DNA from: an uncultured Gammaproteobacteria bacterium
GTDB lineage: Bacteria > Patescibacteriota > Patescibacteriia > S139-126
DNA: 64,000 bases
Assembly: GCA_964493305.1 (NCBI GenBank)
Contig: CAZBLW010000001.1
Coordinates: 17,743-81,742, forward strand
Reading direction: 5' to 3'
The position numbers were made by a program, and so were the translations under genes. Every line of letters begins with the position of its first letter. Position 1 is the first letter of the stretch. Positions 7,880 through 53,687 of this stretch are shown here, piece after piece. The notes below the pieces were generated by a model. It did not search any database. It was not told the origin of the DNA and saw only the letters and a program-made list of their open reading frames with translations.

Positions 7880-7880
7880 A

Positions 7881-12143: not shown

Positions 12144-12716
12144 ATGAGTTTGGTTAAGGAAGTAAAAAAATTGCCCTGGAATTTATCCACGGCTATCACT
12201 TTATTTGGCTTTTTATTGTGGCCATTGGTTTTAAAAACCGTTGGCAAATTCGATTTCTATTTATGGTCAGCTCTATCAGTTTTAGTTGACTTACTGGACG
12301 GAGGAATTGCCGTAATTTTAAAAGAAGAAAATTACAGCCGTCGTTTGGTTGACACCATTAGAGATAAGCTAATTTTTTTTAGCACCCTGACGTTATTGTT
12401 TTATTATGACTATGTTCCTGGTTTTCTTTTTTGGTGGGTAATTGCTTATTTTTCTATTCTTACAGTTGGAGGCTATTTATCTCACGTTTATATAAATTAC
12501 CTACCGGCCTCTGACCACCTGGGTCGTATTTCTCTGATTATTTTATTATTTTTGATAGGCTACTATTATACCACCAGCGTAAACAACCCTGCTCGTTTAT
12601 TTGTCTTTGATTCTCAATTAAATACAGTATTAATATTAATTACCTTAGTTTTGAATATTAGTTGTATTATTAATTACGGCTTTAAAATTTTAGCGGCCAA
12701 AAATAAACCTCTCTGA
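12144..12716 (+). CDS. hypothetical polytopic membrane protein (weak CDP-alcohol phosphatidyltransferase-like DxxDGxxA motif)
   Basis: 190 aa with multiple TM helices. DLLDGGIAV...RRLVDTIRDKL resembles the CDP-OH transferase motif, but the match is incomplete. Confidence 0.4.
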   Translation: MSLVKEVKKLPWNLSTAITLFGFLLWPLVLKTVGKFDFYLWSALSVLVDLLDGGIAVILKEENYSRRLVDTIRDKLIFFSTLTLLFYYDYVPGFLFWWVIAYFSILTVGGYLSHVYINYLPASDHLGRISLIILLFLIGYYYTTSVNNPARLFVFDSQLNTVLILITLVLNISCIINYGFKILAAKNKPL

Positions 12717-12744
12717 TCTAGAGAGGTTTTTTAAATGATATAAA

Positions 12745-13680
12745 TTATTTTTTTCGGTAAAAACGGGCAGCCGTTTCTGGGGGAATAGAATTAATAACTA
12801 GTCCCGCGCCTAGTTCTAGTCCGGCCCAAATAGACTCGCGCGGTTGAATTTTTATATAGAAGTGTTGACTACGATCGGGAATTGATTGGTGCATAAAAAA
12901 GTTATAGGGCATGTTATATCTATTTAGTTTTGCCAAAATCATTTTCATGCCTTTAGCTAAGGAGGCCAATTCACCTTTAGTCAGCTCGGTAATATTATCC
13001 CTTTGTTTATAGGGAAAAATCCAAACCTCATAATGATACAGTGATGCGTAAGGGCAAAAAATAATAATATTTTTGTCATCCCAAACAAAACGAGCAGAAT
13101 TTTTTTCTTTATTTATTATGTCTTGATAGACACTGTGGCCGTGTCTAATTTTATACTCCTGGGCTTTATCAAGTTCATGAAATACATCCGGCGGGGTTTT
13201 TTTGCTAGCAAAAATTTGTGAATGAGCGTGCAATAGCGATGCTCCGGCTGGACCACCCATGTTTTTAAAAATAAGAATATACTCAATATCTTTGATAGTA
13301 CTTAATTTTTTTGTCCGACGACGGTACATATTTAAAACTTGTAAAATTTCTTTATAACTCATATCGCCCAACTCACGACCGTGAATGGGTGTTTCCACTA
13401 CCACTTCTTGTTGCCCGTAGGCTTTAGGGTTGGACAAAGATACGGCCGGAAATTTATTGAGCAAAGTAATTACTTGCCAATTTTTTTTGCCGCCCCACCG
13501 GTCGGTGATTAAATCTTTTTCAATCATAGTAGGACAAAGCACACAGGCTTTGCCTGGTTCACGATGTGAGGTTTCAGTAACGTCTCGGGGACGTTTGGTT
13601 CTGGCCGGCGTTATAATAACATAACGATCTAAAAAATAATCTTTTCTTATTTGAGTTTTGTGATCATAAACAATGGGCAT
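12745..13680 (-). CDS. GalT-like HIT-superfamily nucleotidyltransferase (galactose-1-P uridylyltransferase / ADP-glucose phosphorylase family)
   Basis: 311 aa. N-terminal zinc knuckle CVLCP plus HxHxQ (LHAHSQ), the GalT class I pattern. Last gene of the glycogen-type operon. Confidence 0.6.
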   Translation of the reverse strand: MPIVYDHKTQIRKDYFLDRYVIITPARTKRPRDVTETSHREPGKACVLCPTMIEKDLITDRWGGKKNWQVITLLNKFPAVSLSNPKAYGQQEVVVETPIHGRELGDMSYKEILQVLNMYRRRTKKLSTIKDIEYILIFKNMGGPAGASLLHAHSQIFASKKTPPDVFHELDKAQEYKIRHGHSVYQDIINKEKNSARFVWDDKNIIIFCPYASLYHYEVWIFPYKQRDNITELTKGELASLAKGMKMILAKLNRYNMPYNFFMHQSIPDRSQHFYIKIQPRESIWAGLELGAGLVINSIPPETAARFYRKK

Positions 13681-13687
13681 AAAAAAA

Positions 13688-15121
13688 TTATTTTTTTATT
13701 AATTGTTCATAAAGTAATGCATATTTACGCGCGGATTGTTTCCAGGAAAAATCTTTTTGCAAGCAGTTAATTTGTAGTTCTCGCCAATCGTTTTTATTAT
13801 TGTATACTTTTAGAGCTTTGACAATCGTTTTGTATAATGCCAGTGAGTTTTCTTGTTTAAACATAAAACCAGTGCCATAAATTTTATTTTTTAATTTTTT
13901 GTATTGATCGACAGTATCCTTTAGTCCGCCGGTTGATCGCACAATCGGTATAGCACCATAACGCATGGCTATCAATTGGGTTAAACCACACGGTTCAAAG
14001 CGAGAGGGCACCAAAAACACATCACTGCCCGCATAAATTTTTTGCGCTAAAGCAGGGTCAAAATCAATAATTGATTTTAATGTTGCGGGATATTTTTTTG
14101 CTTGGCTGATTAATTTATTTTCAATATTTTTATCACCAGTTCCTAAAACTACCACCTGGATTTGGTGTTTAGCTAATTTAGGTATAACGCTGATTAACCA
14201 ATCCAGCCCTTTTTGTTCAAACAGTCTAGAAACAACACCAACGAGCATCTTGTCTTGGTTGGTTGTAAATCCCAATTCTTTTTGTAAAGCAGATTTATTG
14301 ACGTTTTTATTGTTGATACTTTTTATAGTGTAATTTTTTTTAATTAATTTGTCGGTAGCAGGGTTGAATTCATCCGTATCAATACCGTTTAAAATCCCAC
14401 TTATTTTTTGCCGTTCAATTTGTAATAGCGAGGCAAGGTTATAACCGAATTTTTTGGTCAAAATTTCTTTAGCATAGGTTTCACTGACAGTATTGACATG
14501 GTCCGAATAAATTACGGCCAACTTCATAAAGTTAATATGTTGAGAATTTATTTTTTCAATTGGCAGACCAATTTTTTGAGCAGATGATTTTCGCCATACA
14601 CCCTGATTGGCAATATTGTGAATAGTAAATAAAGTTTTAATATGGCTTAAAGCAGGATCTTTTTTTATAAGTAAAGGCAACAATCCAGCATGCCAGTCGT
14701 GACAGTGTAAAACAGCTGTGGTTGGTTGGTATTTTTTTATAAACTCTTTAACTGCCAGATTGAATAGGGCGAAGCGACCCTGGTTGGTGTCCGAAGAGTG
14801 CCCGTGTCCGTGTAAATAAATCGGTCCCCGAGAAAGACTGGGGTGATAGAATAAATATAAATTAACCCGAGTGCCTGGTAGGAAAGTTTTGTAGATTTTT
14901 ATATATCCGAAATTGTCTAATTTAAATTCTCCTACAAAGTTAGTTGGTTTTTTGAAATTGGTTAGTTGTTCATAAAGAGGCAAACAAACAGAAACTTTGA
15001 GACTTTTTATTTTAATTAATGCTTTTGGTAATGCACCGACCACATCCGCCAGCCCTCCAACCTTAGCAAGCGGATTTAATTCAGCGGCTACCATTAGAAT
15101 GTTTATTTTTTTTCTAACCAT
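13688..15121 (-). CDS. glgA: glycogen/starch synthase (GlgA-like, GT5)
   Basis: N-terminal KVGGLADVVGALPKAL (K-x-G-G-L) motif and a GT-B C-terminal domain. Confidence 0.85.
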   Translation of the reverse strand: MVRKKINILMVAAELNPLAKVGGLADVVGALPKALIKIKSLKVSVCLPLYEQLTNFKKPTNFVGEFKLDNFGYIKIYKTFLPGTRVNLYLFYHPSLSRGPIYLHGHGHSSDTNQGRFALFNLAVKEFIKKYQPTTAVLHCHDWHAGLLPLLIKKDPALSHIKTLFTIHNIANQGVWRKSSAQKIGLPIEKINSQHINFMKLAVIYSDHVNTVSETYAKEILTKKFGYNLASLLQIERQKISGILNGIDTDEFNPATDKLIKKNYTIKSINNKNVNKSALQKELGFTTNQDKMLVGVVSRLFEQKGLDWLISVIPKLAKHQIQVVVLGTGDKNIENKLISQAKKYPATLKSIIDFDPALAQKIYAGSDVFLVPSRFEPCGLTQLIAMRYGAIPIVRSTGGLKDTVDQYKKLKNKIYGTGFMFKQENSLALYKTIVKALKVYNNKNDWRELQINCLQKDFSWKQSARKYALLYEQLIKK

Positions 15122-15684
15122 GTTATTATTTGATTTAAAATTTTTTTATTGGGTAAATTGGTGGTATTTATCTGCAAACAAGGTAGTTGACTCTTTTGTA
15201 AGAAAAAATCGTAATTTTTTTGTTGGACAATGTATTGTTTGGGCGTTTGTTTGATGCGATTATAGTGGGGGTATAATTGTAACCTTTCTTCTAAGCGGTG
15301 TTGAAAAAGCCCGACATCATTGTCAACAGATAAATAGATTATTTTAAAGTTTAATTTTTTTAAAATTTTTTCAACATTTTTATAATCCACTTTTTTATGT
15401 CGATATAACCAAGAGTACACTTGATCGCTGATGTGAAATTTTTCAAAAATTAGGTTGTCAGGCCTTAATTTTTTAGCCATATCAAGATAACTGTTGATTA
15501 GTGCTTTTCCTTTAGTTGATCCAAAAATGCCAATGTCAGCATTGATCCAGAAACAGCCATCCAATAAATATGGATATTTTTTGGAAGAATATTTTTTTTC
15601 TAAATAATTATAAACTTGGCTAATTACATAACTTTTACCGGTTAATTCAGCACCCTCAAAAATTAAATGGTATGGTTTAGTCAT
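15103..15684 (-). CDS. P-loop nucleoside/nucleotide kinase-like protein
   Basis: 193 aa with Walker A FEGAELTGKS. Overlaps neighbours on both sides and is operonic with the glycogen genes. Confidence 0.4.
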   Translation of the reverse strand: MTKPYHLIFEGAELTGKSYVISQVYNYLEKKYSSKKYPYLLDGCFWINADIGIFGSTKGKALINSYLDMAKKLRPDNLIFEKFHISDQVYSWLYRHKKVDYKNVEKILKKLNFKIIYLSVDNDVGLFQHRLEERLQLYPHYNRIKQTPKQYIVQQKNYDFFLQKSQLPCLQINTTNLPNKKILNQIITWLEKK

Positions 15685-17731
15685 GTTTTTGGGTTAATAT
15701 TTTTTTTACCAATCGTAAATTTTCAACCGGATCATTGGTTATATTTTTATATAAATAGCTAATTTTTTTTAAGTCATAAACCACCAGCTCGAACTTTTTT
15801 TCCAAAAAATTAAGATTAATATTTTTTATAATCCCCATAATAATATAAAAATTTAGACTAGTAATTATATCCCGATCAAGTTTTATGTTATTGAGTTTGA
15901 GATAAGTAGCTAAAAATTGACGACGCAAATATATCGAATTTTTATAAAGAATATTTTTATAGTTAATTTGATTTAAAAAATTCCCGACATCGATTAATGG
16001 GTCGTTTATTTCCGCATTGTCAAAATCAATCAATTTTAATTTGTTTCGATATAAAATTAGGTTTTGTAACTGGAAATCACCGTGGATAAATTTATATTTA
16101 TTTTTTCTAAATCGACTGACTTTCGCTTGTAAAGTTAATAAATTTTTTAGTAAAGTGATATTTTTTTTATTATTGAAACGCTTGTTTTTTTTGATATTAT
16201 TTGAGAACCAGTTTAATTGTTCCGAAATATTATAATTATTGGTAAATTTAATATTGCTAAAATTTTTAGTAGGTAACTTATGTAAGATTGACATTGTTTG
16301 GGCTGATTTTTTGATTAGGGGAGTCAGGTTTTTTTTAGTTTGATAATTTTTATTGGTGATTAAATCGGCCAAAGAACGACCTAAGGTTTTTTCGTAAATA
16401 TATAATTTTTGTTGAGGAAAGTAACCAAGCGGTTGACTTATTAATTTATGACCATTAGGTGAAAGCCAGATAGTTTTAATTATTTGGTATGATTGTCGAG
16501 CTAAATCGTCACCTCGTTCCCAGCGAATTTTTCCCATTATGCTCGTAGTTTTTTTGCCGTTACTGAATAAATATTCGGTTATCAATTTTTGATCACCGGT
16601 TCTAACTACCAGACGGTGGTTAATAATTTCTTTTAAATGCCAAGCTTTTTTTAAGCCAAATATTTTTTTATATTTATTTATGAAATGGTTCGCTGATTTA
16701 AAAGTTGATAAGGTTTCTATTGATCTTACTGTTGAATTGGGTTTTTGCCAGAGTGATAAGTATTCGGAAATTCTTTCTGCCTCTTCAACGTAATAAGCAA
16801 TAGCCTGCCGAGCAATTTTTTTAAATTTAATTTCTGTATTCGGTAAGATGTGTTTGTTTTTTCTATCCAGCTTCAAGCCGGTTATAGAGTTTTCCATTAT
16901 CCGAATATTGCGGGGAATCAATAGTAGTCTATTGAGTAAAAATAGGTGATAAGGGTTATCAATTTCTGGAAAACCATTGGCAATATTGGATTTAATGTCT
17001 TGTTTTATTTCTGGTCTATTCCAAGCAAATAAATACAAGCAACTCAAATCATACAAAGGATTGTTGAGGTGTGCTTCTGACCAATCGATTAAAGCTAATT
17101 TACGATCAGTCAAGATGAGGTTTTTAGGATTTATATCACCGTGGGTCAATACCAACGAAGTGTTGTTTAAAAAGTTTTTTTGTTGTCTCAACAAATTTGT
17201 AACAGTTTGAAAAAGATTTTGGCTAGCATATTTATGAAAATAAACTTTGTTTTTATTGAAGGTGGTAAAATTTGATTTAAAAAACTTTTTTTCCAAAAAT
17301 AATTTATTAGGAATTTTGACTCGTTGTAGTTTTTTTAAAACTTGAAAGAAATTTGTAGCTAAAAAATTTTTTGTAGCTCGTTGACCAATATTAATATAAA
17401 AACCATTTAGGGGATAACCGTTGATATATTTGTACAGTAGATATTCCGGTTGGTTGGCTATATTGCTACTAAAAATTTTTGCGGTTACCAGTCCCTTGAT
17501 TGATTTTTTTTCTAAAAATTTGATTAACTCTATTTCATTTGTAAATTTTTTTTGTGCAACCGCCTGATTATTTAGCCTAATTTTTATTAAAAATTTTTGT
17601 TTTCCGTGTTGCAACATCATAACTAAAAATTCACCACTAGTGCTCATAATGTGTTTTGGTTTTAAATCATATTTTTGCAAAACTTTATTGAGTACGTTAT
17701 TAACCGCATTTGTTGAGAATTTATTGACCAT
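15677..17731 (-). CDS. protein with tandem aminoglycoside-phosphotransferase/choline-kinase-like (APH-family) kinase domains
   Basis: 684 aa. Two Brenner/APH motifs, HGDINPKNLIL...IDWSEA and IHGDFQLQNLILY...LIDFDNAEINDP. Maltokinase-like enzymes of glucan metabolism belong to this fold. Confidence 0.6.
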   Translation of the reverse strand: MVNKFSTNAVNNVLNKVLQKYDLKPKHIMSTSGEFLVMMLQHGKQKFLIKIRLNNQAVAQKKFTNEIELIKFLEKKSIKGLVTAKIFSSNIANQPEYLLYKYINGYPLNGFYINIGQRATKNFLATNFFQVLKKLQRVKIPNKLFLEKKFFKSNFTTFNKNKVYFHKYASQNLFQTVTNLLRQQKNFLNNTSLVLTHGDINPKNLILTDRKLALIDWSEAHLNNPLYDLSCLYLFAWNRPEIKQDIKSNIANGFPEIDNPYHLFLLNRLLLIPRNIRIMENSITGLKLDRKNKHILPNTEIKFKKIARQAIAYYVEEAERISEYLSLWQKPNSTVRSIETLSTFKSANHFINKYKKIFGLKKAWHLKEIINHRLVVRTGDQKLITEYLFSNGKKTTSIMGKIRWERGDDLARQSYQIIKTIWLSPNGHKLISQPLGYFPQQKLYIYEKTLGRSLADLITNKNYQTKKNLTPLIKKSAQTMSILHKLPTKNFSNIKFTNNYNISEQLNWFSNNIKKNKRFNNKKNITLLKNLLTLQAKVSRFRKNKYKFIHGDFQLQNLILYRNKLKLIDFDNAEINDPLIDVGNFLNQINYKNILYKNSIYLRRQFLATYLKLNNIKLDRDIITSLNFYIIMGIIKNINLNFLEKKFELVVYDLKKISYLYKNITNDPVENLRLVKKILTQKHD

Positions 17732-18884
17732 ATTTTTTCCAGTGGGTAGTCCACAGTAAGTACTTAAGTTGATGATAAATTTTTTCAGCTTTAAATTTTA
17801 TGTTTTTTTTGGTATTTAAGGTGCGGATAGTTTTGACCAGCTCTAAGGCCCCCTTTTCCACCTCTTCTGGATGCCAAGCTGGAGCACCAAATAATTTAAA
17901 ATCTTTGTTTGAGGCCCACCAAAAAGTACAACTCGCTAGTCCGCGATTTAGGTGATTTTCCGCCCAATAGTAATTATTGTCTTGAGGGTTATTGAATAAT
18001 TCTTGACTGGCCAATTTTGCCAGTTGCCACAATAATTGGTGAATTTTATTTTTTTGCCCTCGCCAAAGCGGAAAAATGAATTTTTGTTTTAATTCTTTTT
18101 CCAAACTTTCCCAATTGCCAGCTTGAGGGTCGGCAACAATTTCTTCGTTTAGTTGTTTTAAATATTGGTTTATACTAAGAGTTTGGATTTCTTGGTTTTC
18201 TAAAATTTTTCCTAACCAGCCTTGCCAGTCGATAAATCTCAAGCCATATAATTCAGCATCGGTGGCGGTGACTAAATATGGGGGCAATGGTTTTAGTTCC
18301 AAAGTTTTAACCAATTTTCTGGGTGGATAATCGAGCGACCAATCGCGCGACCGGAATACCAAGTTTAAGTTTGAATTTTTTAACTTATATTTTTTTTGCC
18401 AGTCAACTTGATTTAATTTTCCAGTTAAATTTATTTCGTCTAAAATCAGCCACTTATAATTATAGTCAGCAATCAACTGACCAATTTTTTTATTGTAGGC
18501 CATTTCTGGTAAAAAAAATCCCGATGCTTTAGTAGCAAAGTATTGTTGATTTATCTGTTGTTGTAGTTTTATTTGTTGGTGAACAATTTTTTCATCTACC
18601 AATGGTGCAATAGGATGATGCGACAAAGAGTCAACCAACTCTAACTGGCCGCTGGCAATCAATTTTTTAAAGCGCGTAATAATATCTTGATAACCATGAT
18701 CAACAAGTAGTTTTGTAAGACAGCCCGTCAGGTTTAAGCTAAAATGCCAGTTGGGATATTTTTCTGCCATCAACAAAATCCATTCGTAACTTTTTTTTAC
18801 CGCCTCATCTAATTTATCTTGGTCGGTGGTGGGTGGTAGATAAAAGTGTAAAAAATTTACCCAATAGTAAGTATTTTTTTTCAT
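17721..18884 (-). CDS. glycoside hydrolase family 57 (GH57) alpha-glucan-active enzyme
   Basis: Matches GH57 region II (GQLELVDSLSHHPIAPL) and region III (FFLPEMAY, candidate nucleophile Glu). Confidence 0.65.
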   Translation of the reverse strand: MKKNTYYWVNFLHFYLPPTTDQDKLDEAVKKSYEWILLMAEKYPNWHFSLNLTGCLTKLLVDHGYQDIITRFKKLIASGQLELVDSLSHHPIAPLVDEKIVHQQIKLQQQINQQYFATKASGFFLPEMAYNKKIGQLIADYNYKWLILDEINLTGKLNQVDWQKKYKLKNSNLNLVFRSRDWSLDYPPRKLVKTLELKPLPPYLVTATDAELYGLRFIDWQGWLGKILENQEIQTLSINQYLKQLNEEIVADPQAGNWESLEKELKQKFIFPLWRGQKNKIHQLLWQLAKLASQELFNNPQDNNYYWAENHLNRGLASCTFWWASNKDFKLFGAPAWHPEEVEKGALELVKTIRTLNTKKNIKFKAEKIYHQLKYLLWTTHWKKYGQ

Positions 18885-18888
18885 TGTT

Positions 18889-20376
18889 TTATTTTGAACG
18901 CAAGGCTTTTCTAAAAAGCAATAAATATTTTTCAGCTGGTATTTCCCAAGAAAAAGATTGTTGCATGGCTTGTCTGACCATTTTTAGCCAGCTTTCTCGG
19001 TGCCGATGATTGACAATAGCTCTGGTAATAGCTATCAACAAGTCGCGGGAATCATATTTTTTGAAAACAAAACCATTACCTTTATTGTTGCGGGGATTGT
19101 AATCAGAAATAGTATCAACTAACCCGCCGACCGCATGCACCACTGGAATAGCGCCGTAACGTAAGCTTTTAAGTTGAGCGAGGCCACAGGGTTCAAACCT
19201 AGAGGGTAAAAGAAAAATATCAGCCCCAGCTAAAACCATGGTTTCTTTTTGATTATCAAAGTCAAAAATTGCTGCGATTTTTTTGGGATGTTGTTTGCTT
19301 ATCTTAGTAAAATAATCAGTATATTTTTTTGCTCCCTCGCCCAAAATTACTAATTGAATATCCATTCTTAGTAGCGGTTCAATTATTTCTATTATAAGTT
19401 CAATGCCTTTTTGTTCAGTCAGACGTGAAGTCCAGCCGATTAAAGGTATTTTGGGATTTTGTGGCAAACCAACCAATTCTTGCAAATGTAATTTATCTTT
19501 TGTTTTATTGGCCAGTGAATCATAATCATATCTTTCAACCAGACCCGGATCAGTTGAAGGATTCCAATCGGCGTAATCGATGCCATTGACTATACCAAAT
19601 ACCCGATGTTTTTTTTGTTTTAATATTCCGTGCAAACCGTTGCCGAATTTTTTAGTCATAATTTCCTCAGCGTATTTTTCTGACACCGTATTGATTATGT
19701 CCGCATTGGCAATACCTCTTTTGGCAAAATTTACTTTATTAATTAATTCTTCATTTTGAAACAAAGGCAAAGGACGGCGTTCGTCATCCCTAGTGGTTGA
19801 AGGGATTTCCCACCAGTTACCACCCATTTGATAAGTTAGGTTATGAATGGTAAAAATTGTGGCTGCATCCGCGAATCTAGCTTCATTGTGATAACGAGTT
19901 TTTAAATAATAAGGAAGTAAACCCGCTTGCCAATCATGACACTGAATTATATCTGGTTTGATGTCCAACAATTTCATACTTTCGATTACAGCCAAATTAA
20001 AAATTATAAACCTTTGGTTGTCTCTTTTGCCCAAGTAAATATCACTGGGTTTTTTTTGTTCCGGATATAAACGCGATAAAAATTCAGATTCTTCGATTAA
20101 ATAAATAGGTAAGCCGTCACTTAACCACCCTTGCCAGACGGAAAAACTCACAGTTTTACTGTCATCAATCTGTAAAGGAATGTTTTGATAAAGTAATTTT
20201 AATTGAAATTTTGATTTATCAATTTGTGGATACAAGGGCATAAACACACGAACAAAATGCCCCTGTCTTTTTAAGGCTTTTGGTAATGATCTGGCCACAT
20301 CAGCCATACCACCGGTTTTGGCAAAGGGGTCAACTTCACTACAAACTGAAATTATTTTAAGTTTGTTACTTTTCAT
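18889..20376 (-). CDS. glgA: glycogen/starch synthase (second GlgA-like GT5 paralog)
   Basis: KTGGMADVARSLPKAL motif and a GT-B fold C-terminus. Confidence 0.85.
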   Translation of the reverse strand: MKSNKLKIISVCSEVDPFAKTGGMADVARSLPKALKRQGHFVRVFMPLYPQIDKSKFQLKLLYQNIPLQIDDSKTVSFSVWQGWLSDGLPIYLIEESEFLSRLYPEQKKPSDIYLGKRDNQRFIIFNLAVIESMKLLDIKPDIIQCHDWQAGLLPYYLKTRYHNEARFADAATIFTIHNLTYQMGGNWWEIPSTTRDDERRPLPLFQNEELINKVNFAKRGIANADIINTVSEKYAEEIMTKKFGNGLHGILKQKKHRVFGIVNGIDYADWNPSTDPGLVERYDYDSLANKTKDKLHLQELVGLPQNPKIPLIGWTSRLTEQKGIELIIEIIEPLLRMDIQLVILGEGAKKYTDYFTKISKQHPKKIAAIFDFDNQKETMVLAGADIFLLPSRFEPCGLAQLKSLRYGAIPVVHAVGGLVDTISDYNPRNNKGNGFVFKKYDSRDLLIAITRAIVNHRHRESWLKMVRQAMQQSFSWEIPAEKYLLLFRKALRSK

Positions 20377-20392: not shown

Positions 20393-20917
20393 CTATTTAT
20401 AGGATTTAATGGCTTGTAGTCCACAATAGGCGATCGCCAGCGCATCGGCGGCATCATCTGGTTTGGGTAAAGTGGGCAAAGAGAAAATCAACTGTACCAT
20501 TTTTTGGATTTGTTTTTTTTCTGCCCGACCGTGACCGACCAACGCTTGTTTTACTTGCAGGGGTGTGTAATTGAAAATTTTTAGTTTAGCCAACGTAGCC
20601 ACCAATAGGATTACCCCCCTAGCTTCACCAACCAATAAGGCAGTTTTGGCGTTATTGTAAAAATAAATATTTTCAATAGCCAAAATATCAGGTTGATAGT
20701 GTTTAATAATTTTTTCCAATTCATTTTTGATGAAAATAAGCCGATCGGTAAAAGCCTCTTTGGCGTGAGTAACGATCACACCGTGATCTAAATGAGAGAT
20801 TTTTTGGCCATCAGTTTTGATAACCCCATAGCCAGTTAAGGCATAACCAGGATCAATACCTAGAATTGTGTGATATTTATTCTTCACCATTGGTGTAATA
20901 GTTTTGGATATCATCAT
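20393..20917 (-). CDS. ruvC: crossover junction endodeoxyribonuclease RuvC
   Basis: ILGIDPGYALTGYGV N-terminal motif with conserved acidic residues. The true start is probably the Met of MVKNKYH (about 20890). Confidence 0.85.
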   Translation of the reverse strand: MMISKTITPMVKNKYHTILGIDPGYALTGYGVIKTDGQKISHLDHGVIVTHAKEAFTDRLIFIKNELEKIIKHYQPDILAIENIYFYNNAKTALLVGEARGVILLVATLAKLKIFNYTPLQVKQALVGHGRAEKKQIQKMVQLIFSLPTLPKPDDAADALAIAYCGLQAIKSYK

Positions 20918-21602
20918 CCTGATCTAATTCGTCAATAAAACCTTGCCATTTATTTGAATCTTGAATCTTAATCGTTTCTTTAGGTAAATACTCTAGTTCA
21001 TTGGAAAAAATTGTTTCGGAATTTTTTTCTAAAACCGAGATAACTTTTTGCATGTTGGTTGGCTGGCAATAAACAATCAATTTGTTTTCTTGATCGGATT
21101 GATTTTGTTCCCAGTCTTCAGCGCCAGCATCAATCAGTTGGAGTTGTAAGTTATCGTCCAGCGCTTTAGTTAGACTGCTTACCACCACTCCTTTTCTATC
21201 AAACATCCAAAGCAATGATCCGTTGGCTGCCAATTGACCACCGTGTTTTCCTAGGATGTGTTTAAGATTAGATACGGTGCGGTTACGATTGTCTGTAATC
21301 GCTTCTATTATAATAGCTAATTTTTCTGGCCCTAACCCCTCATAGGTTAGTTGTTCCAGTTGAGCTTCATTACTTTTGCCGCTACCTCTACTAATTGCCC
21401 GTTCAATATTACTTTTCGGCATATTGGCAGTTTTGGCTTTATCAATAGCAATCTTTAGTTTGAAATTACTATTAGGATCAGAACCGCCTTCGCGCACCGC
21501 TAAAGCAATAATATTTGATAGTTTGGTAAAGGCATTGGCTTTTTTAGCATCAACTACTGCCTTTTGTCTTTTAGTGGTGGCCCACTTAGAATGACCTGAC
21601 AT
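20877..21602 (-). CDS. yebC: YebC/PmpR-family transcriptional regulator
   Basis: MSGHSKWATTKRQKAVVDAKKANAFTKL is the canonical YebC N-terminus. Confidence 0.9.
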   Translation of the reverse strand: MSGHSKWATTKRQKAVVDAKKANAFTKLSNIIALAVREGGSDPNSNFKLKIAIDKAKTANMPKSNIERAISRGSGKSNEAQLEQLTYEGLGPEKLAIIIEAITDNRNRTVSNLKHILGKHGGQLAANGSLLWMFDRKGVVVSSLTKALDDNLQLQLIDAGAEDWEQNQSDQENKLIVYCQPTNMQKVISVLEKNSETIFSNELEYLPKETIKIQDSNKWQGFIDELDQDDDIQNYYTNGEE

Positions 21603-21759
21603 AAAAAAAACCCCAAAAAATGGTGGTAAATTAATAATCTGATAAATTTATTATAACAAAAATGTCCAAAAAAATCAATATTTGTTAATTGTTTTGCCAA
21701 ATATTTTTTTATCGTGTAAGCTGAAGATTGCCTATTGTTAATCACTAAAATATTGTTCT

Positions 21760-23040
21760 ATGGATTATACTATTCAAGATAATGGTCACAGCGTCAAAAT
21801 TATTACAGTTAATTTACCACCAACTTATTTTCAGCCCTGGTTAGATAAGGCGGCAAAAAATTTAAGCAGTCAAAAACCAATTGCTGGTTTTAGGCCGGGC
21901 CAAGCACCGAGAAATTTGGTAGAGAAAAAATTTGGCACCATGGCGCTGTTAGAAAATGTAATTGATGAAATTTTATCACAAAGTTATTATGACATTCTTC
22001 AAAAAGAAAAGTTGATGGTGGTGGGTAAGCCGAAAATTGAGATTAAAAAAATGACGCCAGACGAAACCCTGACCTATACCGCGGAGATATCGTTGTTGCC
22101 AGAAGTTACCTTGGGGGAGCTGTCAAATTTGAAAATCAATATGGAAAAACCGGTTGTGACCGAGAAAGATATTGATGAGGTTTTATTGGATTTAAGAAAA
22201 TCGCGCGTTGAGGAAAAAATAATTGATGAGCCAGCGAAAATGGGTGACAAAACAATTATTGATTTTACAGTTAAATTGGACGGGGTTGTTATTGAGGGCG
22301 GACAAGGCAAGGATTATCCCTTAGTTTTGGGCGAAGGAGTATTTATTCCTGGATTTGAGGAAAAATTAGTTGGTAAAAAAGCTAAGGACAAAATCGATTT
22401 TAAACTAAACTTTCCCCAAGATTATAAAGCTGATCTGGCTGGCAAAGAAGCAGATTTTTCGGTAGAAATAAAGTCTGTTCTGCAAAGAATATTACCGGAA
22501 ATAAACCAAGACTGGTTAAATTCATTAGGCAATTACCAGAGTCTTGATGAGTTAAAAGCGCAGATTAAACAGAATTTGTTATTGGATAAAGAACAAAAAG
22601 CTGATCAAAAATTTGAAATCAATTTATTTGAAGAATTGATAAAAAACTCTACCTTTACTGACATCCCGGAGGTATTAATTGACAATGAATTACACCGCAT
22701 GAAACACGAACTAACTGACAGTTTACAACCTCAAGGACTAACCCTCGGCGATTATTTGCAACGTTTAGGTAAGACCGAGGCAGATTTAAAAAAAGAATGG
22801 CGTGAGGCTGCTATAAAAAGGATAAAAACCGCATTGGTGGCTAGAAAGTATGCTGAAGAAAATAAAATCGCAGCAACCAAAGAGGATATTGATCAAGAAA
22901 TAGCCGTTTTAGAAAAAAATTATCAACAACAGCCAGAAATTTTGAAAAATATTCAGTCTCCAGAATTTCGTGACTACCTTTTTCACACCTTAACCAATCG
23001 TCAGGTAGTCAATCATTTAAAGAAAATAGTAATTAAATAG
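21760..23040 (+). CDS. tig: trigger factor
   Basis: 426 aa. The GFRPGQAP ribosome-binding signature and a PPIase-like middle domain. Confidence 0.85.
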   Translation: MDYTIQDNGHSVKIITVNLPPTYFQPWLDKAAKNLSSQKPIAGFRPGQAPRNLVEKKFGTMALLENVIDEILSQSYYDILQKEKLMVVGKPKIEIKKMTPDETLTYTAEISLLPEVTLGELSNLKINMEKPVVTEKDIDEVLLDLRKSRVEEKIIDEPAKMGDKTIIDFTVKLDGVVIEGGQGKDYPLVLGEGVFIPGFEEKLVGKKAKDKIDFKLNFPQDYKADLAGKEADFSVEIKSVLQRILPEINQDWLNSLGNYQSLDELKAQIKQNLLLDKEQKADQKFEINLFEELIKNSTFTDIPEVLIDNELHRMKHELTDSLQPQGLTLGDYLQRLGKTEADLKKEWREAAIKRIKTALVARKYAEENKIAATKEDIDQEIAVLEKNYQQQPEILKNIQSPEFRDYLFHTLTNRQVVNHLKKIVIK

Positions 23041-23042
23041 TT

Positions 23043-23897
23043 ATGAAAATTGGCGTACACGTATCAGCCGCTGGTGGTTTAGTAAACGCCCCGCTTAATG
23101 CCAAAACTCTTGGTTGTGAAACCTTTCAATTTTTTTCACGTTCTCCTAGAGGAGGCAAGCCAACTCCATTGACCAAGTCTACTGTTAAGGAATTTAAACA
23201 GCGTTGTATGGAGTATGGTTTGGTTGATTATTATATTCACACTCCTTATTATATTAATTTTGCCTCAAGTAATCAGCGTATACGTCACGGTTCGATTGAG
23301 GTGGTGAGACAAGAATTAGAACGGGGAGAACTCTTGGGGGTTAGGGCCACTATGACCCACTTAGGCAGTGCCAAGGATTTATCACCCCAACCAGCTTTGA
23401 AACTGGTTGCTCAGGGAATTATCGAAGTTTTGGCTAATTATAAAGGAAAAAATAGATTATTGCTGGAAATATCAGCCGGTAGTGGGCAGGTAATCGGTGC
23501 AAATTTTACTGAACTTGCTGAGCTAATAAAATTGATAGAACAGAAAATAAAACATCATCAGGTTGGTGTGTGTTTTGATACTGCGCATGCTTTTGCTTCG
23601 GGTTATGATTTGCGTAATGATGCCAAGGTTAAACAAACTTTAAAAAAATTTGATCAAATAATCGGATTAAATCGTTTGGTATTAATTCACGCCAATGACT
23701 CGAAAGCCGATTTTAATTCTCATAAAGATAGACACGAAAATATTGGTCAAGGTAAAATTGGTCGTCAGGGTTTTGCCGCCTTGGTAAGTTATCCCAAATT
23801 GAAAAAAGTTAATTTTATTCTGGAAACACCCTGGGATAATGAAAATATAGTCAAAAAAGATTTGCACACCCTCAAAAAATTGCGTGATAAAAAATAG
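23043..23897 (+). CDS. nfo: deoxyribonuclease IV (endonuclease IV)
   Basis: MKIGVHVSAAGG... TIM-barrel AP endonuclease 2 pattern with His/Asp/Glu metal ligands. Confidence 0.85.
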   Translation: MKIGVHVSAAGGLVNAPLNAKTLGCETFQFFSRSPRGGKPTPLTKSTVKEFKQRCMEYGLVDYYIHTPYYINFASSNQRIRHGSIEVVRQELERGELLGVRATMTHLGSAKDLSPQPALKLVAQGIIEVLANYKGKNRLLLEISAGSGQVIGANFTELAELIKLIEQKIKHHQVGVCFDTAHAFASGYDLRNDAKVKQTLKKFDQIIGLNRLVLIHANDSKADFNSHKDRHENIGQGKIGRQGFAALVSYPKLKKVNFILETPWDNENIVKKDLHTLKKLRDKK

Positions 23898-23978
23898 TGT
23901 GCTAAGATAAGGACAAGAAAATTTTCCCCATGCCTATGTTGCCTATCAGCCAAAGAAAGGAGGTTATATTTTTTTACT

Positions 23979-24003: not shown

Positions 24004-24036
24004 TTATTTAAAAATCCATTTATTCCAGGAGGAGTT

Positions 24037-52802: not shown

Positions 52803-53687
52803 TTAAATTAATTTTTGCAAATATTTTTTTAACTCAGTTTTGGTTTCTTTGTCTTTAAGACCAAAAGCGATATTGGCTTTCAACCAAGTCAACTTGTTGC
52901 CGGTATCATAGTAGACCCCATCTACAATTTTGGAATAAATTGGGCGTTTTTTACCCAAAGCATCCACGGCATCAACCAACCAGAGTTCATTGCCTTTGCC
53001 CAGTTTAGTTTTTTCCAATATCGGGAAAATATCAGGCGTTAGTACATAGCCACCCAGATTGGCAATCAGCGAGGGGGTATTTTGGGGCCCTGGTTTTTCT
53101 ACTATTTTTTCTACTTGGTAAACAGTTGGTTCTACTTTTATGCCTTTGAGCATGCCGTATTTAGCCGCATCATTACGGGGGACTTGATAGCCAGTAGTTA
53201 CGGGGTCACCGTATTTTTGAAATACCTCAATCAGTTGTAACAGTCTGGGTTTTTTGGGGCAGTCAAATACTTCATCGCCCCAGAGCATGGCAAAAGGTTC
53301 GTTACCAACAATAGGTTTGGCATTTAAAATCGGGGTGCCGTTGCCATAGGGGCCTTTTTGTCGGATATAAATAAAATTGGCTTGGCGGGAAATATTTCTG
53401 ATTTTTTCGTATAAATCTTTTTTAGCAGGATTGTTTTTCAAGGTTTCTTCCAGTTCGGGGGAGCGATCAAAGTGATCTTCACAAGCCCGCTTGGTATAAG
53501 AGGTAACAAAGATAATATCAGTAATTCCCGAGGCGACTGCTTCTTCCACGACGTATTGCAAAATCGGTTTATCCAAAATTGGCAACATCTCTTTGGGGAT
53601 GGCTTTGGTGGCTGGTAAAAATCTAGTACCCAAGCCGGCTACTGGGATCACTACTTTTCTGATCGGATGAGTAAATTTTTTGGTCAT
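52803..53687 (-). CDS. galU: UTP--glucose-1-phosphate uridylyltransferase
   Basis: VIPVAGLGTRFLPATKAIPKEMLPILDKP N-terminal signature. Confidence 0.9.
   Translation of the reverse strand: MTKKFTHPIRKVVIPVAGLGTRFLPATKAIPKEMLPILDKPILQYVVEEAVASGITDIIFVTSYTKRACEDHFDRSPELEETLKNNPAKKDLYEKIRNISRQANFIYIRQKGPYGNGTPILNAKPIVGNEPFAMLWGDEVFDCPKKPRLLQLIEVFQKYGDPVTTGYQVPRNDAAKYGMLKGIKVEPTVYQVEKIVEKPGPQNTPSLIANLGGYVLTPDIFPILEKTKLGKGNELWLVDAVDALGKKRPIYSKIVDGVYYDTGNKLTWLKANIAFGLKDKETKTELKKYLQKLI

What the first reader, a model, noticed from the sequence alone, without database searches (positions are those of the whole stretch)
12745..20376. Tightly overlapped glycogen-type operon with two GlgA paralogs, GH57, a GalT-like transferase and two atypical kinases, but no GlgC or GlgP
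Six minus-strand genes overlap or abut: GlgA-like, GH57, a 684-aa protein with two tandem APH/maltokinase-fold kinase domains, a P-loop kinase-like protein, a second GlgA-like gene and a GalT-like HIT nucleotidyltransferase. Classical ADP-glucose pyrophosphorylase and phosphorylase are absent from the window; galU is present at 52803. Inference: a non-canonical alpha-glucan pathway, for example a UDP-glucose- or maltose-1-phosphate-fed route in which the APH-fold enzyme acts as a maltokinase and the GalT-like enzyme interconverts sugar nucleotides.
Basis: inference. Interest (0 to 1): 0.55.

Follow-up and report, generated by a model that had tools for sequence, protein, structure and literature searches.

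The report
Non-canonical glycogen operon in a CPR bacterium
A tiny-genome Patescibacteria (CPR) bacterium carries a tightly packed gene cluster for making a glycogen-like sugar polymer; it has no usual sugar-activating gene (glgC) in the stretch read, and instead carries a GalT-like enzyme closest to a plant ADP-glucose phosphorylase and a rare fused double kinase, but what these extra enzymes do is inferred, not shown.

Summary
Six abutting or overlapping minus-strand genes at 12745-20376 encode two GT5 glycogen synthases (36% identical), a short GH57 with both catalytic residues, a 684-aa fusion of two catalytically intact APH-fold kinases, a 193-aa P-loop protein with a thymidylate/deoxynucleoside-kinase fold, and a class-I GalT-like HIT enzyme. 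No glgC, glgP, glgB, glgE or pgm lies in the window. galU does.

The host is a Paceibacter-like Patescibacterium, and the cluster sits about 5 kb from dnaN/dnaA. Comparative genomics shows two recurring gene sets:
- GlgA1-type + GH57 + C-type APH + TMPK-like, with GH57 and APH fused in one lineage.
- GlgA2-type + N-type APH + GalT-like.

A sister genome has the core with no APH at all, so the kinases are accessory.

The GalT-like family profile scores best against Arabidopsis ADP-glucose phosphorylase (200 bits, versus 156 for an archaeal GalT and 98 for E. coli GalT). Neither kinase half resembles maltokinase beyond the shared fold.

My best reading, an inference at about 0.4, is a GlgC-independent alpha-glucan pathway. 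The HIT enzyme would supply or recycle NDP-glucose from glucose-1-phosphate, and the kinases would salvage free sugars. A plain GalU/UDP-glucose route with merely syntenic neighbours remains a serious rival. I rate it a new variant of a known kind, of moderate interest.

The parts
18889..20376 (-). GlgA1: GT5 glycogen/starch synthase (495 aa), first glucan gene of the unit
   Evidence: TIGR02095 505 bits (cutoff 328) and PF08323. Best PDB match is E. coli glycogen synthase 2QZS, E 7e-79, with the KTGGM and SRFEPCGL motifs aligned. Orthologues in L013, L014 and L022 are 48-56% identical, against 34-38% between those orthologues and GlgA2.
17721..18884 (-). Short GH57 family enzyme (387 aa) with both catalytic residues intact
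   Evidence: PF03065 88 bits. Invariant GFFLPEMAY (Glu127) and TATDAELYG (Asp209) plus GQLE. The family profile aligns these to Glu123 and Asp214 of T. litoralis 4-alpha-glucanotransferase 1K1W, E 1e-18. The branching-enzyme equivalog NF041566 scores only 36 bits against a cutoff of 920.
16727..17731 (-). N-terminal APH-fold kinase domain of the 684-aa fusion ('N-type')
   Evidence: K50, E66, H197-G-D199, N204 and D216 are invariant. Free-standing orthologues occur in L011 (between a GlgA2-type gene and GalT-like) and in L021.
15677..16726 (-). C-terminal APH-fold kinase domain of the fusion ('C-type'), including the stop codon
   Evidence: H550-G-D552, N557 and D569 are invariant. It is an old paralogue of the N half (18% identity, hhalign probability 98%). 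It is the better match to the single-domain APH after GH57 in L014 and to the APH fused to GH57 in L013.
15103..15684 (-). TMPK/deoxynucleoside-kinase-fold P-loop protein (193 aa), substrate unknown
   Evidence: No Pfam hit. TIGR00041 scores 18 bits against a cutoff of 83. The AlphaFold model has pLDDT 96. Foldseek top hits are B. subtilis YorR 3KB2, S. aureus and Sulfolobus thymidylate kinases, and deoxynucleoside kinases. The family has 65 clusters; every hit that carries an organism name is Patescibacteria.
13688..15121 (-). GlgA2: second GT5 glycogen/starch synthase (477 aa), 36% identical to GlgA1
   Evidence: TIGR02095 516 bits. KVGGL and SRFEPCGL motifs present. The L011 GlgA is closer to GlgA2 (42%) than to GlgA1 (35%).
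12745..13680 (-). Class-I GalT-like HIT nucleotidyltransferase (311 aa), closest to ADP-glucose phosphorylase
   Evidence: PF01087 58 bits. TIGR00209 galT scores 86 bits, below its 102 cutoff. H151-A-H153-S-Q155 is invariant; C46, C49 and H100 are nearly invariant. The family profile scores 199.6 bits against At5g18200 (1Z84), 156 against P. aerophilum GalT (6K5Z) and 97.6 against E. coli GalT.
20393..21602 (-). ruvC (20393-20917) and yebC (20877-21602), probably co-transcribed upstream genes
   Evidence: Pfam and NCBIfam hits above cutoff. ruvC ends 16 nt before GlgA1. The yebC-ruvC-GlgA adjacency also occurs in L011, L013, L014 and L022.
21650..21678 (-). Promoter-like site upstream of yebC (TTGATT-17-TATAAT with TG)
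   Evidence: This is a consensus match only; the number of such sites in the region is not above shuffles.
12705..12729 (-). Terminator-like hairpin (10-bp stem, then a T-run) 16 nt after the GalT-like stop codon
   Evidence: consensus match only.
52803..53687 (-). GalU-like UTP--glucose-1-phosphate uridylyltransferase, outside the operon; the conventional source of UDP-glucose
   Evidence: TIGR01099 298.6 bits (cutoff 326.8) is the best hit by far; glgC TIGR02091 scores only 22 bits. The next gene downstream is a sugar-type solute-binding protein at 51386-52792.

Best explanation
This is a lineage-specific alpha-1,4-glucan (glycogen-like) operon of a Paceibacter-like Patescibacterium.

Shown:
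- Two bona fide GT5 synthases.
- A catalytically intact short GH57.
- A class-I GalT/ADP-glucose-phosphorylase-like HIT enzyme with its nucleophile and zinc ligands.
- A TMPK-fold P-loop protein.
- A fusion of two anciently diverged, catalytically complete APH-fold kinases.
- All are packed into one unit and conserved across genomes.

Inferred mechanism:
1. Glucose-1-phosphate is converted to NDP-glucose without GlgC by the HIT enzyme. The likeliest reaction is ADP + Glc-1-P <-> ADP-glucose + Pi, the reverse of the reaction described for the Arabidopsis enzyme. The alternative is uridylyl exchange with a UDP-hexose.
2. GlgA1 and GlgA2 polymerise the glucose and return the NDP, so the nucleotide acts catalytically and no NTP is spent per glucose added.
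3. GH57 remodels or branches the chains. Its catalytic domain is closest to a 4-alpha-glucanotransferase.
4. The APH-fold kinases are optional feeders that phosphorylate free glucose or maltose, imported or released by GH57. The favoured position is the anomeric carbon, as in several sugar kinases of this fold.
5. The TMPK-like protein most likely keeps a nucleotide in the diphosphate form.
For: Composition and catalytic motifs:
- Domain assignments.
- GH57 Glu127 and Asp209 aligned to the catalytic pair of 1K1W.
- Kinase motifs in both halves.
- HxHSQ and the zinc cysteines of the HIT enzyme.

Operon structure:
- Overlaps and short gaps.
- Bounding promoter-like and terminator-like sites.

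Conservation:
- The same order occurs in L003, L005, L006, L008 and L018, with GalT 71-92%, GlgA1 71-86% and kinase 44-65% identical.

Functional linkage beyond close relatives:
- L011 has overlapping GlgA2-type -> N-type APH -> GalT-like genes.
- L013 and L014 have GlgA1-type -> GH57 -> C-type APH -> TMPK-like, with GH57 and APH fused into one 762-aa protein in L013.
- L022 has GlgA1-GH57-TMPK-like-GlgA2-GalT.

HIT enzyme affinity:
- The family profile scores 199.6 bits against At5g18200, 156 against PaGalT and 97.6 against E. coli GalT.
- At5g18200 is reported to act as an ADP-glucose phosphorylase rather than a GalT (PMC6329318, citing McCoy et al. 2006).

Donor expectation:
- Both synthases exceed the cutoff of the ADP-glucose-type model TIGR02095. 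GlgA1 aligns a Phe to the Tyr of the E. coli synthase segment IGYHE, and GlgA2 has Phe at the matching position. From memory, that Tyr is the adenine-stacking residue.

Absence of glgC:
- There is no glgC in the window; the only NTP-transferase is GalU-like.

Kinase fold:
- The top structural neighbour of the kinase is methylthioribose kinase, an anomeric sugar kinase.
Against: - No biochemistry. Nucleotide and sugar specificities cannot be read from sequence.
- The nearest true GalT (P. aerophilum) is only 44 bits behind the phosphorylase.
- Only the phosphorolytic direction was described for the plant enzyme; synthesis in vivo is my inference.
- GalU is present, and GT5 synthases can use UDP-glucose (PMC11046441). 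GlgC may therefore simply be unnecessary.
- In Falkowbacteria the GalT-like gene stands alone next to PBP1-dnaN-dnaA with no glucan genes. The TMPK-like gene stands alone in a Komeilibacterium. Part of the adjacency could thus be inherited synteny near the origin.
- The kinases are absent from L022, and their structural neighbours are a flat list of unrelated small-molecule kinases.
- The rest of the genome could not be searched for glgC, glgP or pgm.
Confidence: 0.4

Rival explanations
1. A conventional UDP-glucose route. GalU makes UDP-glucose from UTP and Glc-1-P, pulled by the membrane H+-pyrophosphatase. The two GT5 synthases use it, and GH57 branches. The GalT-like gene, the TMPK-like gene and the kinases are housekeeping or salvage genes that sit there through inherited synteny near the replication origin and have no dedicated role in glucan synthesis.
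For: - A GalU-like gene at 52803-53687 and an H+-PPase at 40193-42154.
- GT5 synthases include UDP-glucose-using and dual-specificity groups (PMC11046441).
- GalT-like stands alone beside PBP1-dnaN-dnaA in two Falkowbacteria-type loci.
- TMPK-like stands alone in L012.
- The same origin-proximal neighbourhood (yebC-ruvC ... PBP1-dnaN-dnaA) is conserved across these lineages.
- L022 lacks the kinases.
Against: - Genes are overlapping or nearly so, with no internal strong terminator.
- Sub-sets are retained as units in distant lineages: GlgA2-type + N-APH + GalT in L011, and GlgA1-type + GH57 + C-APH + TMPK-like in L013 and L014.
- GH57 and APH are fused in L013.
- Both synthases score as the ADP-glucose type.
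- The short GH57 fails the branching-enzyme model.
Confidence: 0.25
2. Catabolic or turnover emphasis. GH57 acts as an amylase or 4-alpha-glucanotransferase and releases glucose or maltose from stored or imported alpha-glucan. The APH kinases stand in for glucokinase and trap the released sugar as a sugar phosphate for glycolysis. GlgA plus the ADP-glucose phosphorylase-like enzyme, run backwards, could together substitute for the missing glycogen phosphorylase (glucan + ADP -> ADP-glucose; ADP-glucose + Pi -> Glc-1-P + ADP).
For: - The GH57 catalytic domain is closest to T. litoralis 4-alpha-glucanotransferase.
- GH57 and APH are fused in L013, which also has a GH15 oligosaccharide-amylase-like gene and a ROK glucokinase in the cluster.
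- L003 adds an SDR whose best match is the NAD-dependent glucose-6-phosphate dehydrogenase Azf, next to a third APH.
- L014 has a GDE_C-type gene in the cluster.
- The described direction of At5g18200 is phosphorolysis.
- No glgP lies in the window.
Against: - Reversal of GT5 synthases is not established.
- Two synthases are the best-conserved large genes of the unit, which argues for synthesis.
- L013 already has a ROK glucokinase, so the APH there is not simply a glucokinase substitute.
- The Azf-like hit is far below its cutoff (182 bits against 400).
Confidence: 0.15
3. A maltose-1-phosphate route. One APH domain is a functional analogue of maltokinase. The GH57 next to it, or fused to it, uses maltose-1-phosphate as a donor, as GlgE does. 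The GT5 synthases supply primers or linear chains.
For: - The GH57::APH fusion in L013 parallels the TreS-maltokinase fusions of the GlgE pathway (fusions described in PMC11046441).
- L011 carries a GT4 protein that scores 498 bits on TIGR02149, the actinobacterial 'GlgA' family whose mycobacterial member is the maltose-1-phosphate synthase GlgM. It sits directly upstream of the GlgA2-type, N-APH and GalT-like genes (GlgM function from PMC11046441).
Against: - No sequence-level relation to Mak/Pep2.
- No GlgE or TreS in the window or in any related locus.
- No GH57 is known to use a sugar-1-phosphate donor.
- The kinases are dispensable in L022.
Confidence: 0.12
4. The double kinase is an antibiotic-resistance-type phosphotransferase (aminoglycoside or macrolide) that merely sits in the operon.
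For: The best NCBIfam hit is the APH(3') family (58 bits). APH(2'') enzymes are among the best sequence and fold matches.
Against: - The score is far below the family cutoff (58 against 205).
- About 10-15% identity to any APH in the structural alignments.
- A recurrent position between glucan genes in several lineages, and the fusion to GH57.
- The family is confined to a few small-genome Patescibacteria.
Confidence: 0.03

Closest known systems
Classical bacterial GlgC-GlgA-GlgB glycogen pathway
   Same: GT5 GlgA-type synthases with the KxGG[LM] and SRFEPCGL motifs. The genes are arranged as an operon, and a glucan-remodelling enzyme lies next to the synthase.
   Different: No GlgC, GH13 GlgB, GlgP or GlgX in the window. 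There are two synthase paralogues. A short GH57 takes the place of GlgB. A HIT-family GalT-like enzyme, a TMPK-fold protein and a double APH kinase are embedded in the unit.
Arabidopsis At5g18200 ADP-glucose phosphorylase (PDB 1Z84/2H39), a class-I GalT-family HIT enzyme
   Same: It is the best solved-structure match to the GalT-like protein and to its CPR family profile (132 and 199.6 bits). The HxHxQ nucleophile motif and the Cys-x-x-Cys/His zinc site are conserved, and the length is similar.
   Different: A plant enzyme with no known link to a glucan synthase operon. Only phosphorolysis has been described. The CPR protein's nucleotide and acceptor specificity is untested, and an archaeal true GalT (6K5Z) is the next best match.
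GlgE pathway with TreS-maltokinase (Mak/Pep2) and GlgM
   Same: An APH-fold kinase associated with alpha-glucan genes. A glycoside hydrolase is fused to the kinase in one relative (GH57::APH, compared with TreS::Mak). A GlgM-family GT4 lies next to the related genes in L011.
   Different: No GlgE or TreS. The kinases are not members of the Mak/Pep2 family by sequence. The hydrolase is GH57, not GH13. The polymerases are NDP-sugar GT5 enzymes.
Leloir pathway and bifidobacterial GNB/LNB pathway (anomeric kinase + GalT + GalE; NahK is APH-fold)
   Same: An APH-fold kinase is combined with a GalT-family HIT transferase. L003 adds an SDR-family enzyme in the same cluster.
   Different: No GalK or clear GalE. 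The bifidobacterial pathway GalT is class II, whereas this one is class I. The L003 SDR best matches a glucose-6-phosphate dehydrogenase, not GalE. The partners here are glucan synthases.
GH57 4-alpha-glucanotransferase of Thermococcus litoralis (1K1W) and GH57 branching enzymes
   Same: All of conserved regions 1-4 align, including the catalytic Glu and Asp. GH57 genes next to glucan synthases are common.
   Different: The protein is only 387 aa. It lacks the C-terminal domains of both the glucanotransferase (659 aa) and the branching enzymes (about 520-560 aa). The branching-enzyme equivalog model scores 36 bits against a cutoff of 920.

Membership tests
GT5 glycogen/starch synthase (GlgA, TIGR02095) | Full-length match above the curated cutoff | tested here: met
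   GlgA1 505.3 bits and GlgA2 515.7 bits against a cutoff of 328.45. PF08323 226 and 203 bits.
GT5 glycogen/starch synthase (GlgA, TIGR02095) | N-terminal K-x-G-G-L motif and the catalytic Glu in the SRFEPCGL segment | tested here: met
   GlgA1 has KTGGM and PSRFEPCGLAQL; GlgA2 has KVGGL and PSRFEPCGLTQL. Both were aligned to E. coli GS 2QZS and to each other.
GT5 glycogen/starch synthase (GlgA, TIGR02095) | Donor specificity (ADP-glucose versus UDP-glucose) | not testable with these tools
   GlgA1 aligns a Phe to the Tyr of the E. coli segment IGYHE, and GlgA2 has Phe at the matching position. GT5 enzymes include ADP-glucose, UDP-glucose and dual users (PMC11046441).
GH57 glycoside hydrolase family | Pfam PF03065 above cutoff, with the catalytic nucleophile Glu (region 3) and acid/base Asp (region 4) | tested here: met
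   87.8 bits against a cutoff of 21.2. Glu127 in GFFLPEMAY and Asp209 in TATDAELYG are invariant in 6 sequences and align to Glu123 and Asp214 of 1K1W.
GH57 glycogen branching enzyme (NF041566 type) | Full-length equivalog match and a length of about 520 aa with the C-terminal helical domain | tested here: not met
   36.4 bits against a cutoff of 920, and only residues 67-133 match. The protein is 387 aa.
APH / eukaryotic-like small-molecule kinase fold (PF01636) | Two lobes with the beta3 Lys, alphaC Glu, the HGDxxxxN catalytic loop and the metal-binding Asp | tested here: met
Maltokinase Mak/Pep2 | Sequence membership: a family HMM hit, or a significant match to solved Mak proteins | tested here: not met
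Maltokinase Mak/Pep2 | ATP-dependent phosphorylation of maltose at C1 | not testable with these tools
   Needs an enzyme assay.
Class-I GalT (HIT superfamily, GalT branch) | HxHxQ motif with a nucleophilic His, a zinc site (Cys-x-x-Cys plus His), and PF01087 | tested here: met
   H151-A-H153-S-Q155 is invariant. C46, C49 and H100 are at least 90% conserved across 21 CPR homologues. PF01087 57.8 bits against a cutoff of 22.1.
Galactose-1-phosphate uridylyltransferase equivalog (TIGR00209 / NF008724) | Score above the curated equivalog cutoff | tested here: not met
   TIGR00209 86.4 bits against a cutoff of 102.1. NF008724 102.1 bits against a cutoff of 448.
ADP-glucose phosphorylase (At5g18200 type) | Closer to At5g18200 than to characterised GalTs | tested here: met
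   The CPR family profile scores 199.6 bits against 1Z84, 156 against PaGalT 6K5Z, 97.6 against E. coli GalT and 83 against human GalT. The single sequence gives 132, 125 and 51.5 bits against 1Z84, PaGalT and E. coli GalT.
ADP-glucose phosphorylase (At5g18200 type) | ADP-glucose + Pi <-> ADP + Glc-1-P activity, with poor GalT activity | not testable with these tools
   Needs an enzyme assay. The paper describing the plant enzyme is not held in the library.
Thymidylate kinase (TIGR00041 / PF02223) | HMM score above the cutoff | tested here: not met
   TIGR00041 18.3 bits against a cutoff of 83.25. No Pfam hit for the window protein. A few relatives carry PF02223.
Thymidylate kinase / deoxynucleoside kinase fold (P-loop NMP-kinase-like) | Walker A motif plus a fold match | tested here: met
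   GAELTGKS is conserved. The model has pLDDT 96.2. Foldseek gives YorR 3KB2 at E 5e-7 and TMKs at E about 1e-6, with TM-scores of 0.54-0.74.
GlgE pathway | Presence of GlgE (GH13_3) and TreS or GlgM with the kinase | tested here: not met
   None in the window or in loci L001-L022. The one exception is a GlgM-family GT4 in L011. The rest of the genome was not searchable.

The most novel reading that the evidence does not exclude
Patescibacteria make storage glucan by a GlgC-free, pyrophosphate-free cycle. An ADP-glucose-phosphorylase-type HIT enzyme runs in the synthetic direction (ADP + Glc-1-P -> ADP-glucose + Pi). The GT5 synthases regenerate the ADP. APH-fold anomeric kinases, sometimes fused to a GH57, trap the alpha-sugars released or imported as sugar-1-phosphates. 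In the more radical variant, GH57 itself uses a sugar-1-phosphate donor as GlgE does. Either variant would be a third route to bacterial alpha-glucan, beside GlgC/GlgA and GlgE.
Probability: 0.22. Interest if true: 0.8.

Novelty: new variant of a known kind. Interest (0 to 1): 0.55.

Why it matters
CPR/Patescibacteria are a large part of bacterial diversity. They have minimal genomes and are thought to live on scavenged sugars and nucleotides, and how they store carbon is poorly described.

This cluster keeps two glycogen synthases while no textbook activating enzyme is found in the stretch read, and it pairs them with a HIT enzyme whose nearest characterised relative is an ADP-glucose phosphorylase. 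That suggests a cheaper way to activate glucose, recycling an NDP instead of spending an NTP. It would also give a physiological role to a family (class-I GalT-like/DUF4931-like proteins, more than 1,400 clusters, most of the named ones from Patescibacteria) that is routinely annotated as galactose-1-phosphate uridylyltransferase.

The finding also defines two unstudied kinase families and a GH57-kinase fusion as concrete targets for enzyme assays. If the conventional GalU route proves sufficient, the finding reduces to a tidy lineage-specific operon.

Tried and rejected
- **Sequence search of the 684-aa kinase against the PDB:** no hit at E <= 0.01. Half-domain profiles gave only generic APH and choline-kinase matches.
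- **Search for GH57::APH fusions among the 750-810-aa hits of the representative search:** 16 proteins of 735-840 aa were scanned and all turned out to be APH-APH double kinases of a distant family. None contained GH57. The fusion therefore rests on L013 alone.
- **Metagenome scan with the kinase alignment:** only 3 loci, all of the same lineage or fragments.
- **Primary paper on the plant ADP-glucose phosphorylase** (PMC2532824, doi 10.1021/bi052232m): not held. Adenine-versus-uracil determinants could not be checked residue by residue.
- **Literature searches** for CPR/Patescibacteria glycogen genes, ADP-glucose phosphorylase with glycogen synthase, and GH57-kinase fusions: none described this operon.
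- **The kinase fusion as a recent tandem duplication:** rejected. The halves are 18% identical and each has free-standing orthologues.
- **The 193-aa protein as a sugar kinase:** no support. Its fold is that of nucleotide and nucleoside kinases.
- **Whole-genome absence of glgC, glgP and pgm:** could not be tested.

Full report
**1. What is there**

The region holds six minus-strand ORFs exactly as described. In transcription order they are:
- 20376-18889, 495 aa
- 18884-17721, 387 aa
- 17731-15677, 684 aa
- 15684-15103, 193 aa
- 15121-13688, 477 aa
- 13680-12745, 311 aa

The junctions are a 4-nt gap, an 11-nt overlap, an 8-nt overlap, a 19-nt overlap and a 7-nt gap. ruvC ends 16 nt upstream of the first gene, and yebC overlaps ruvC. 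A promoter-like site lies upstream of yebC (21678-21650), and a 10-bp hairpin followed by a T-run lies 16 nt after the last stop codon (12729-12705). These are consensus matches only. They fit a single yebC-to-GalT transcription unit.

**2. HMM assignments**

- Both large GT proteins exceed the cutoff of TIGR02095, 'glycogen/starch synthase, ADP-glucose type' (505 and 516 bits, cutoff 328).
  - They carry the K-x-G-G-[ML] and SRFEPCGL motifs.
  - GlgA1 aligns end to end with E. coli glycogen synthase.
  - The two are 36% identical to each other.
- The 387-aa protein is GH57 (PF03065, 88 bits).
  - In six orthologues, Glu127 (GFFLPEMAY), Asp209 (TATDAELYG) and the GQLE region are invariant.
  - The family profile aligns them onto the catalytic Glu123 and Asp214 of the T. 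litoralis 4-alpha-glucanotransferase 1K1W (E 1e-18).
  - It fails the GH57 branching-enzyme equivalog (36 bits, cutoff 920) and is about 130-270 residues shorter than characterised GH57 enzymes.
- The 684-aa protein has two APH (PF01636) domains.
  - Both keep the Lys/Glu pair, the HGDxxxxN loop and the metal-binding Asp, invariant across the family.
- The 193-aa protein has no Pfam hit.
  - It has a conserved Walker A motif (GAELTGKS).
  - Its AlphaFold model (pLDDT 96) matches B. subtilis YorR, thymidylate kinases and deoxynucleoside kinases.
- The 311-aa protein is a class-I GalT-family HIT enzyme.
  - It has an invariant H151-A-H153-S-Q155 and a conserved Cys46/Cys49/His100 zinc site.
  - It scores below the galT equivalog cutoffs.

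**3. Organism and wider window**

Identical proteins occur on a 558-kb NCBI contig. The nearest named relative is a 'Candidatus Paceibacter sp.' MAG; others are labelled Patescibacteria.

The cluster lies about 5 kb from dnaN and dnaA. Elsewhere the window holds:
- a GalU-like gene at 52803-53687 (TIGR01099, 298.6 bits against a cutoff of 326.8);
- a sugar-type solute-binding protein next to it;
- a membrane H+-pyrophosphatase.

No glgC, glgP, glgB, glgE, treS or pgm is present. The rest of the genome could not be examined.

**4. How rare, and how conserved**

The double kinase is rare. There are 13 clusters at 90% identity among 5.8 billion proteins, and six full-length representatives at 50% identity among 1.84 billion.

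The whole six-gene order recurs in L003, L005, L006, L008 and L018. Identities to the window proteins are 71-92% for GalT, 71-86% for GlgA1, 54-70% for GH57, 49-65% for GlgA2 and 44-65% for the kinase halves.

The slot between the kinase and GlgA2 varies:
- The TMPK-like gene fills it in the window, L006, L008 and L018.
- A third single-domain APH-like kinase fills it in L005.
- A third APH-like kinase plus an SDR fills it in L003. The SDR's best match, below cutoff, is the NAD-dependent glucose-6-phosphate dehydrogenase Azf.

**5. Two sub-sets and an optional kinase**

More distant Patescibacteria show that the cluster is built from two recurring gene sets.
- **Set A: GlgA1-type + GH57 + C-type APH + TMPK-like.** It occurs in L013 and L014. 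Their synthases are 51% and 48% identical to GlgA1 against 37-38% to GlgA2, their GH57 is 40-41% identical, and their APH matches the C half best. In L013, GH57 and the APH are one 762-aa protein.
- **Set B: GlgA2-type + N-type APH + GalT-like.** It occurs in L011 as three overlapping genes. The synthase is 42% identical to GlgA2 against 35% to GlgA1, and the APH hits only the N half (E 6e-35). A GT4 protein of the TIGR02149 ('glgA_Coryne', GlgM-type) family lies directly upstream (498 bits).

Further points:
- L021 has N-type and C-type kinases as separate adjacent genes. The halves are only 18% identical. The 684-aa protein is therefore a fusion of two old paralogues, not a recent duplication.
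- L022, a sister lineage, has yebC-ruvC-GlgA1-GH57-TMPK-like-GlgA2-GalT with no APH at all. The kinases are accessory to a core of two synthases, GH57, the TMPK-like protein and the HIT enzyme.
- The GalT-like gene stands alone beside PBP1-dnaN-dnaA in two Falkowbacteria-type loci, and the TMPK-like gene stands alone in a Komeilibacterium. Neither is restricted to glucan clusters, and part of the adjacency may be inherited origin-proximal synteny.

**6. What the accessory enzymes resemble**

- **The GalT-like protein.**
  - Its family is large: 1,414 clusters at E <= 1e-10. Most of the named hits are from Patescibacteria.
  - The best solved relative of the single sequence is Arabidopsis At5g18200 (132 bits), closely followed by P. 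aerophilum GalT (125 bits). E. coli GalT is far behind at 51.5 bits.
  - With a 21-sequence CPR profile the order is clearer: 199.6, 156, 97.6 and 83 bits for At5g18200, PaGalT, E. coli GalT and human GalT.
  - At5g18200 is reported to act as an ADP-glucose phosphorylase rather than a GalT (PMC6329318, citing McCoy et al. 2006; also bioRxiv 10.64898/2026.09.13.751320).
- **The kinase.**
  - No maltokinase, MTR-kinase or NahK model hits by sequence.
  - The fold says 'small-molecule kinase'. Only the genomic context says 'sugar'.

**7. Most likely mechanism**

Shown:
- an operon of two GT5 synthases;
- an active-site-intact GH57;
- a HIT nucleotidyltransferase closest to an ADP-glucose phosphorylase;
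- a nucleotide-kinase-fold protein;
- two intact kinases;
- linkage by conservation, by sub-set retention and by one gene fusion.

Inferred:
1. The HIT enzyme links Glc-1-P and NDP-glucose without GlgC.
   - I favour ADP + Glc-1-P <-> ADP-glucose + Pi.
   - Uridylyl exchange with a UDP-hexose is the alternative.
2. The synthases pull the reaction and return the NDP.
   - The net reaction is then Glc-1-P -> glucan + Pi with a catalytic nucleotide.
   - This is the same overall chemistry as a reversible glucan phosphorylase and costs no NTP, which would suit an energy-poor symbiont.
3. GH57 disproportionates or branches the chains.
4. The APH kinases, where present, phosphorylate free glucose or maltose.
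   - GH57 is a retaining family (established knowledge of the family), so it releases alpha-anomers.
   - That would suit an anomeric kinase, and the L013 fusion fits such coupling.
5. The TMPK-like protein plausibly maintains the NDP pool.
   - Its replacement by an APH-like kinase in the same slot in L003 and L005 is unexplained.

I put about 0.4 on this scheme as a whole, and about 0.85 on the narrower statement that the unit is an alpha-glucan metabolism operon.

**8. Rivals**

- **(a) A plain GalU -> UDP-glucose -> GlgA route, with the other genes merely syntenic (0.25).** GT5 enzymes can use UDP-glucose (PMC11046441), and GalU and an H+-PPase are present.
- **(b) A catabolic reading (0.15).** GH57 releases sugars and the kinases trap them. 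GlgA plus the phosphorylase-like enzyme might substitute for the missing GlgP. Supporting context is the ROK, GH15, GDE_C and Azf-like neighbours in relatives.
- **(c) A maltose-1-phosphate route (0.12).** The kinase would be a maltokinase analogue and GH57 a GlgE analogue. The fusion and the GlgM-type GT4 of L011 suggest it. It lacks GlgE, TreS and any sequence tie to Mak.
- **(d) Antibiotic-type APHs (0.03).**

**9. Comparison with what is known, and novelty**

The synthases and GH57 are ordinary family members. The combination is not. No paper found in the searchable library describes a glucan operon that joins GT5 synthases to a class-I GalT/ADP-glucose-phosphorylase-like enzyme, a TMPK-fold protein and APH-fold kinases, or a GH57-kinase fusion.

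It is best filed as a new variant of the NDP-glucose-dependent glycogen pathway, specific to a branch of Patescibacteria. Every functional claim about the accessory enzymes rests on context and remote similarity, and a conventional explanation has not been excluded. I therefore score interest at 0.55.

The most novel reading that is not excluded is a GlgC-free, NDP-recycling route to alpha-glucan fed by anomeric kinases. I give it a probability of about 0.22. It would deserve about 0.8 if true.

Noticed in passing
window 31528-31790 (+): A full-length T-box leader (110 bits, above the Rfam cutoff) has no aminoacyl-tRNA synthetase or transporter gene downstream. Only 53- and 64-aa ORFs follow before a convergent 504-aa secreted phosphatase-like gene at 32104-33618. 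It may be an orphan or decaying T-box, or one that regulates a small ORF.
   Followed up: partly
L013 5716-8004: A single 762-aa protein fuses the short GH57 (41% identical to the window GH57) to a C-type APH kinase. It sits in a cluster of GH15-GlgA-[GH57::APH]-TMPK-like-ROK glucokinase. This was the only such fusion seen.
   Followed up: partly
L011 7347-8558: A GT4 protein scores 498 bits on TIGR02149, the actinobacterial GlgA/GlgM-type family of maltose-1-phosphate synthases. It lies directly upstream of the GlgA2-type, N-type APH and GalT-like genes in a Patescibacterium with no GlgE nearby.
   Followed up: no
L003 12068-13772; L005 12043-12984: In two relatives the TMPK-like gene is absent. 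A third single-domain APH-like kinase (ThiK/choline-kinase-like) occupies the same slot, and L003 adds an SDR whose best match is the NAD-dependent glucose-6-phosphate dehydrogenase Azf (182 bits, cutoff 400). This may be non-orthologous displacement of one kinase by another.
   Followed up: partly
L014 5497-6366; L021 5876-6742: A PHP-family phosphoesterase follows the APH kinase gene(s) in two unrelated loci. Its best match, below cutoff, is 3',5'-nucleoside bisphosphate phosphatase. This hints at a nucleotide-linked substrate and is unexplained.
   Followed up: no
proteins P0239-P0341 (representative search): A separate, distantly related family of APH-APH double kinases exists. The 16 members of 735-840 aa that were scanned are all of this type, and one hit is fused to an ABC transporter (P0291, 1404 aa). 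The tandem-APH architecture is therefore not unique to this lineage. Their taxonomy and context are unknown.
   Followed up: partly
window 40193-42154 (+): A membrane H+-translocating pyrophosphatase (PF03030, 880 bits) in a genome of roughly 0.56 Mb. It is relevant to the energetics of any NDP-sugar pyrophosphorylase such as GalU.
   Followed up: no
window 42226-48053: A GT2 glycosyltransferase is followed by two large proteins (548 and 557 aa) with no Pfam hit and by a convergent DUF2079 membrane protein. This may be a cell-envelope glycan module.
   Followed up: no
window 1-10442 and 20393-28677: The window spans the replication-origin neighbourhood. It holds yidC, dnaA at 5170-6540, dnaN at 6776-7879 and PBP1 at 7881-10442. 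The order yebC-ruvC ... PBP1-dnaN-dnaA is conserved across several Patescibacteria classes, so gene adjacency here is partly inherited synteny.
   Followed up: partly
window 48618-50731 and 51386-53687: A run of small T4SS-pilin-like (PF18895) genes lies next to a sugar-type solute-binding protein and galU.
   Followed up: no
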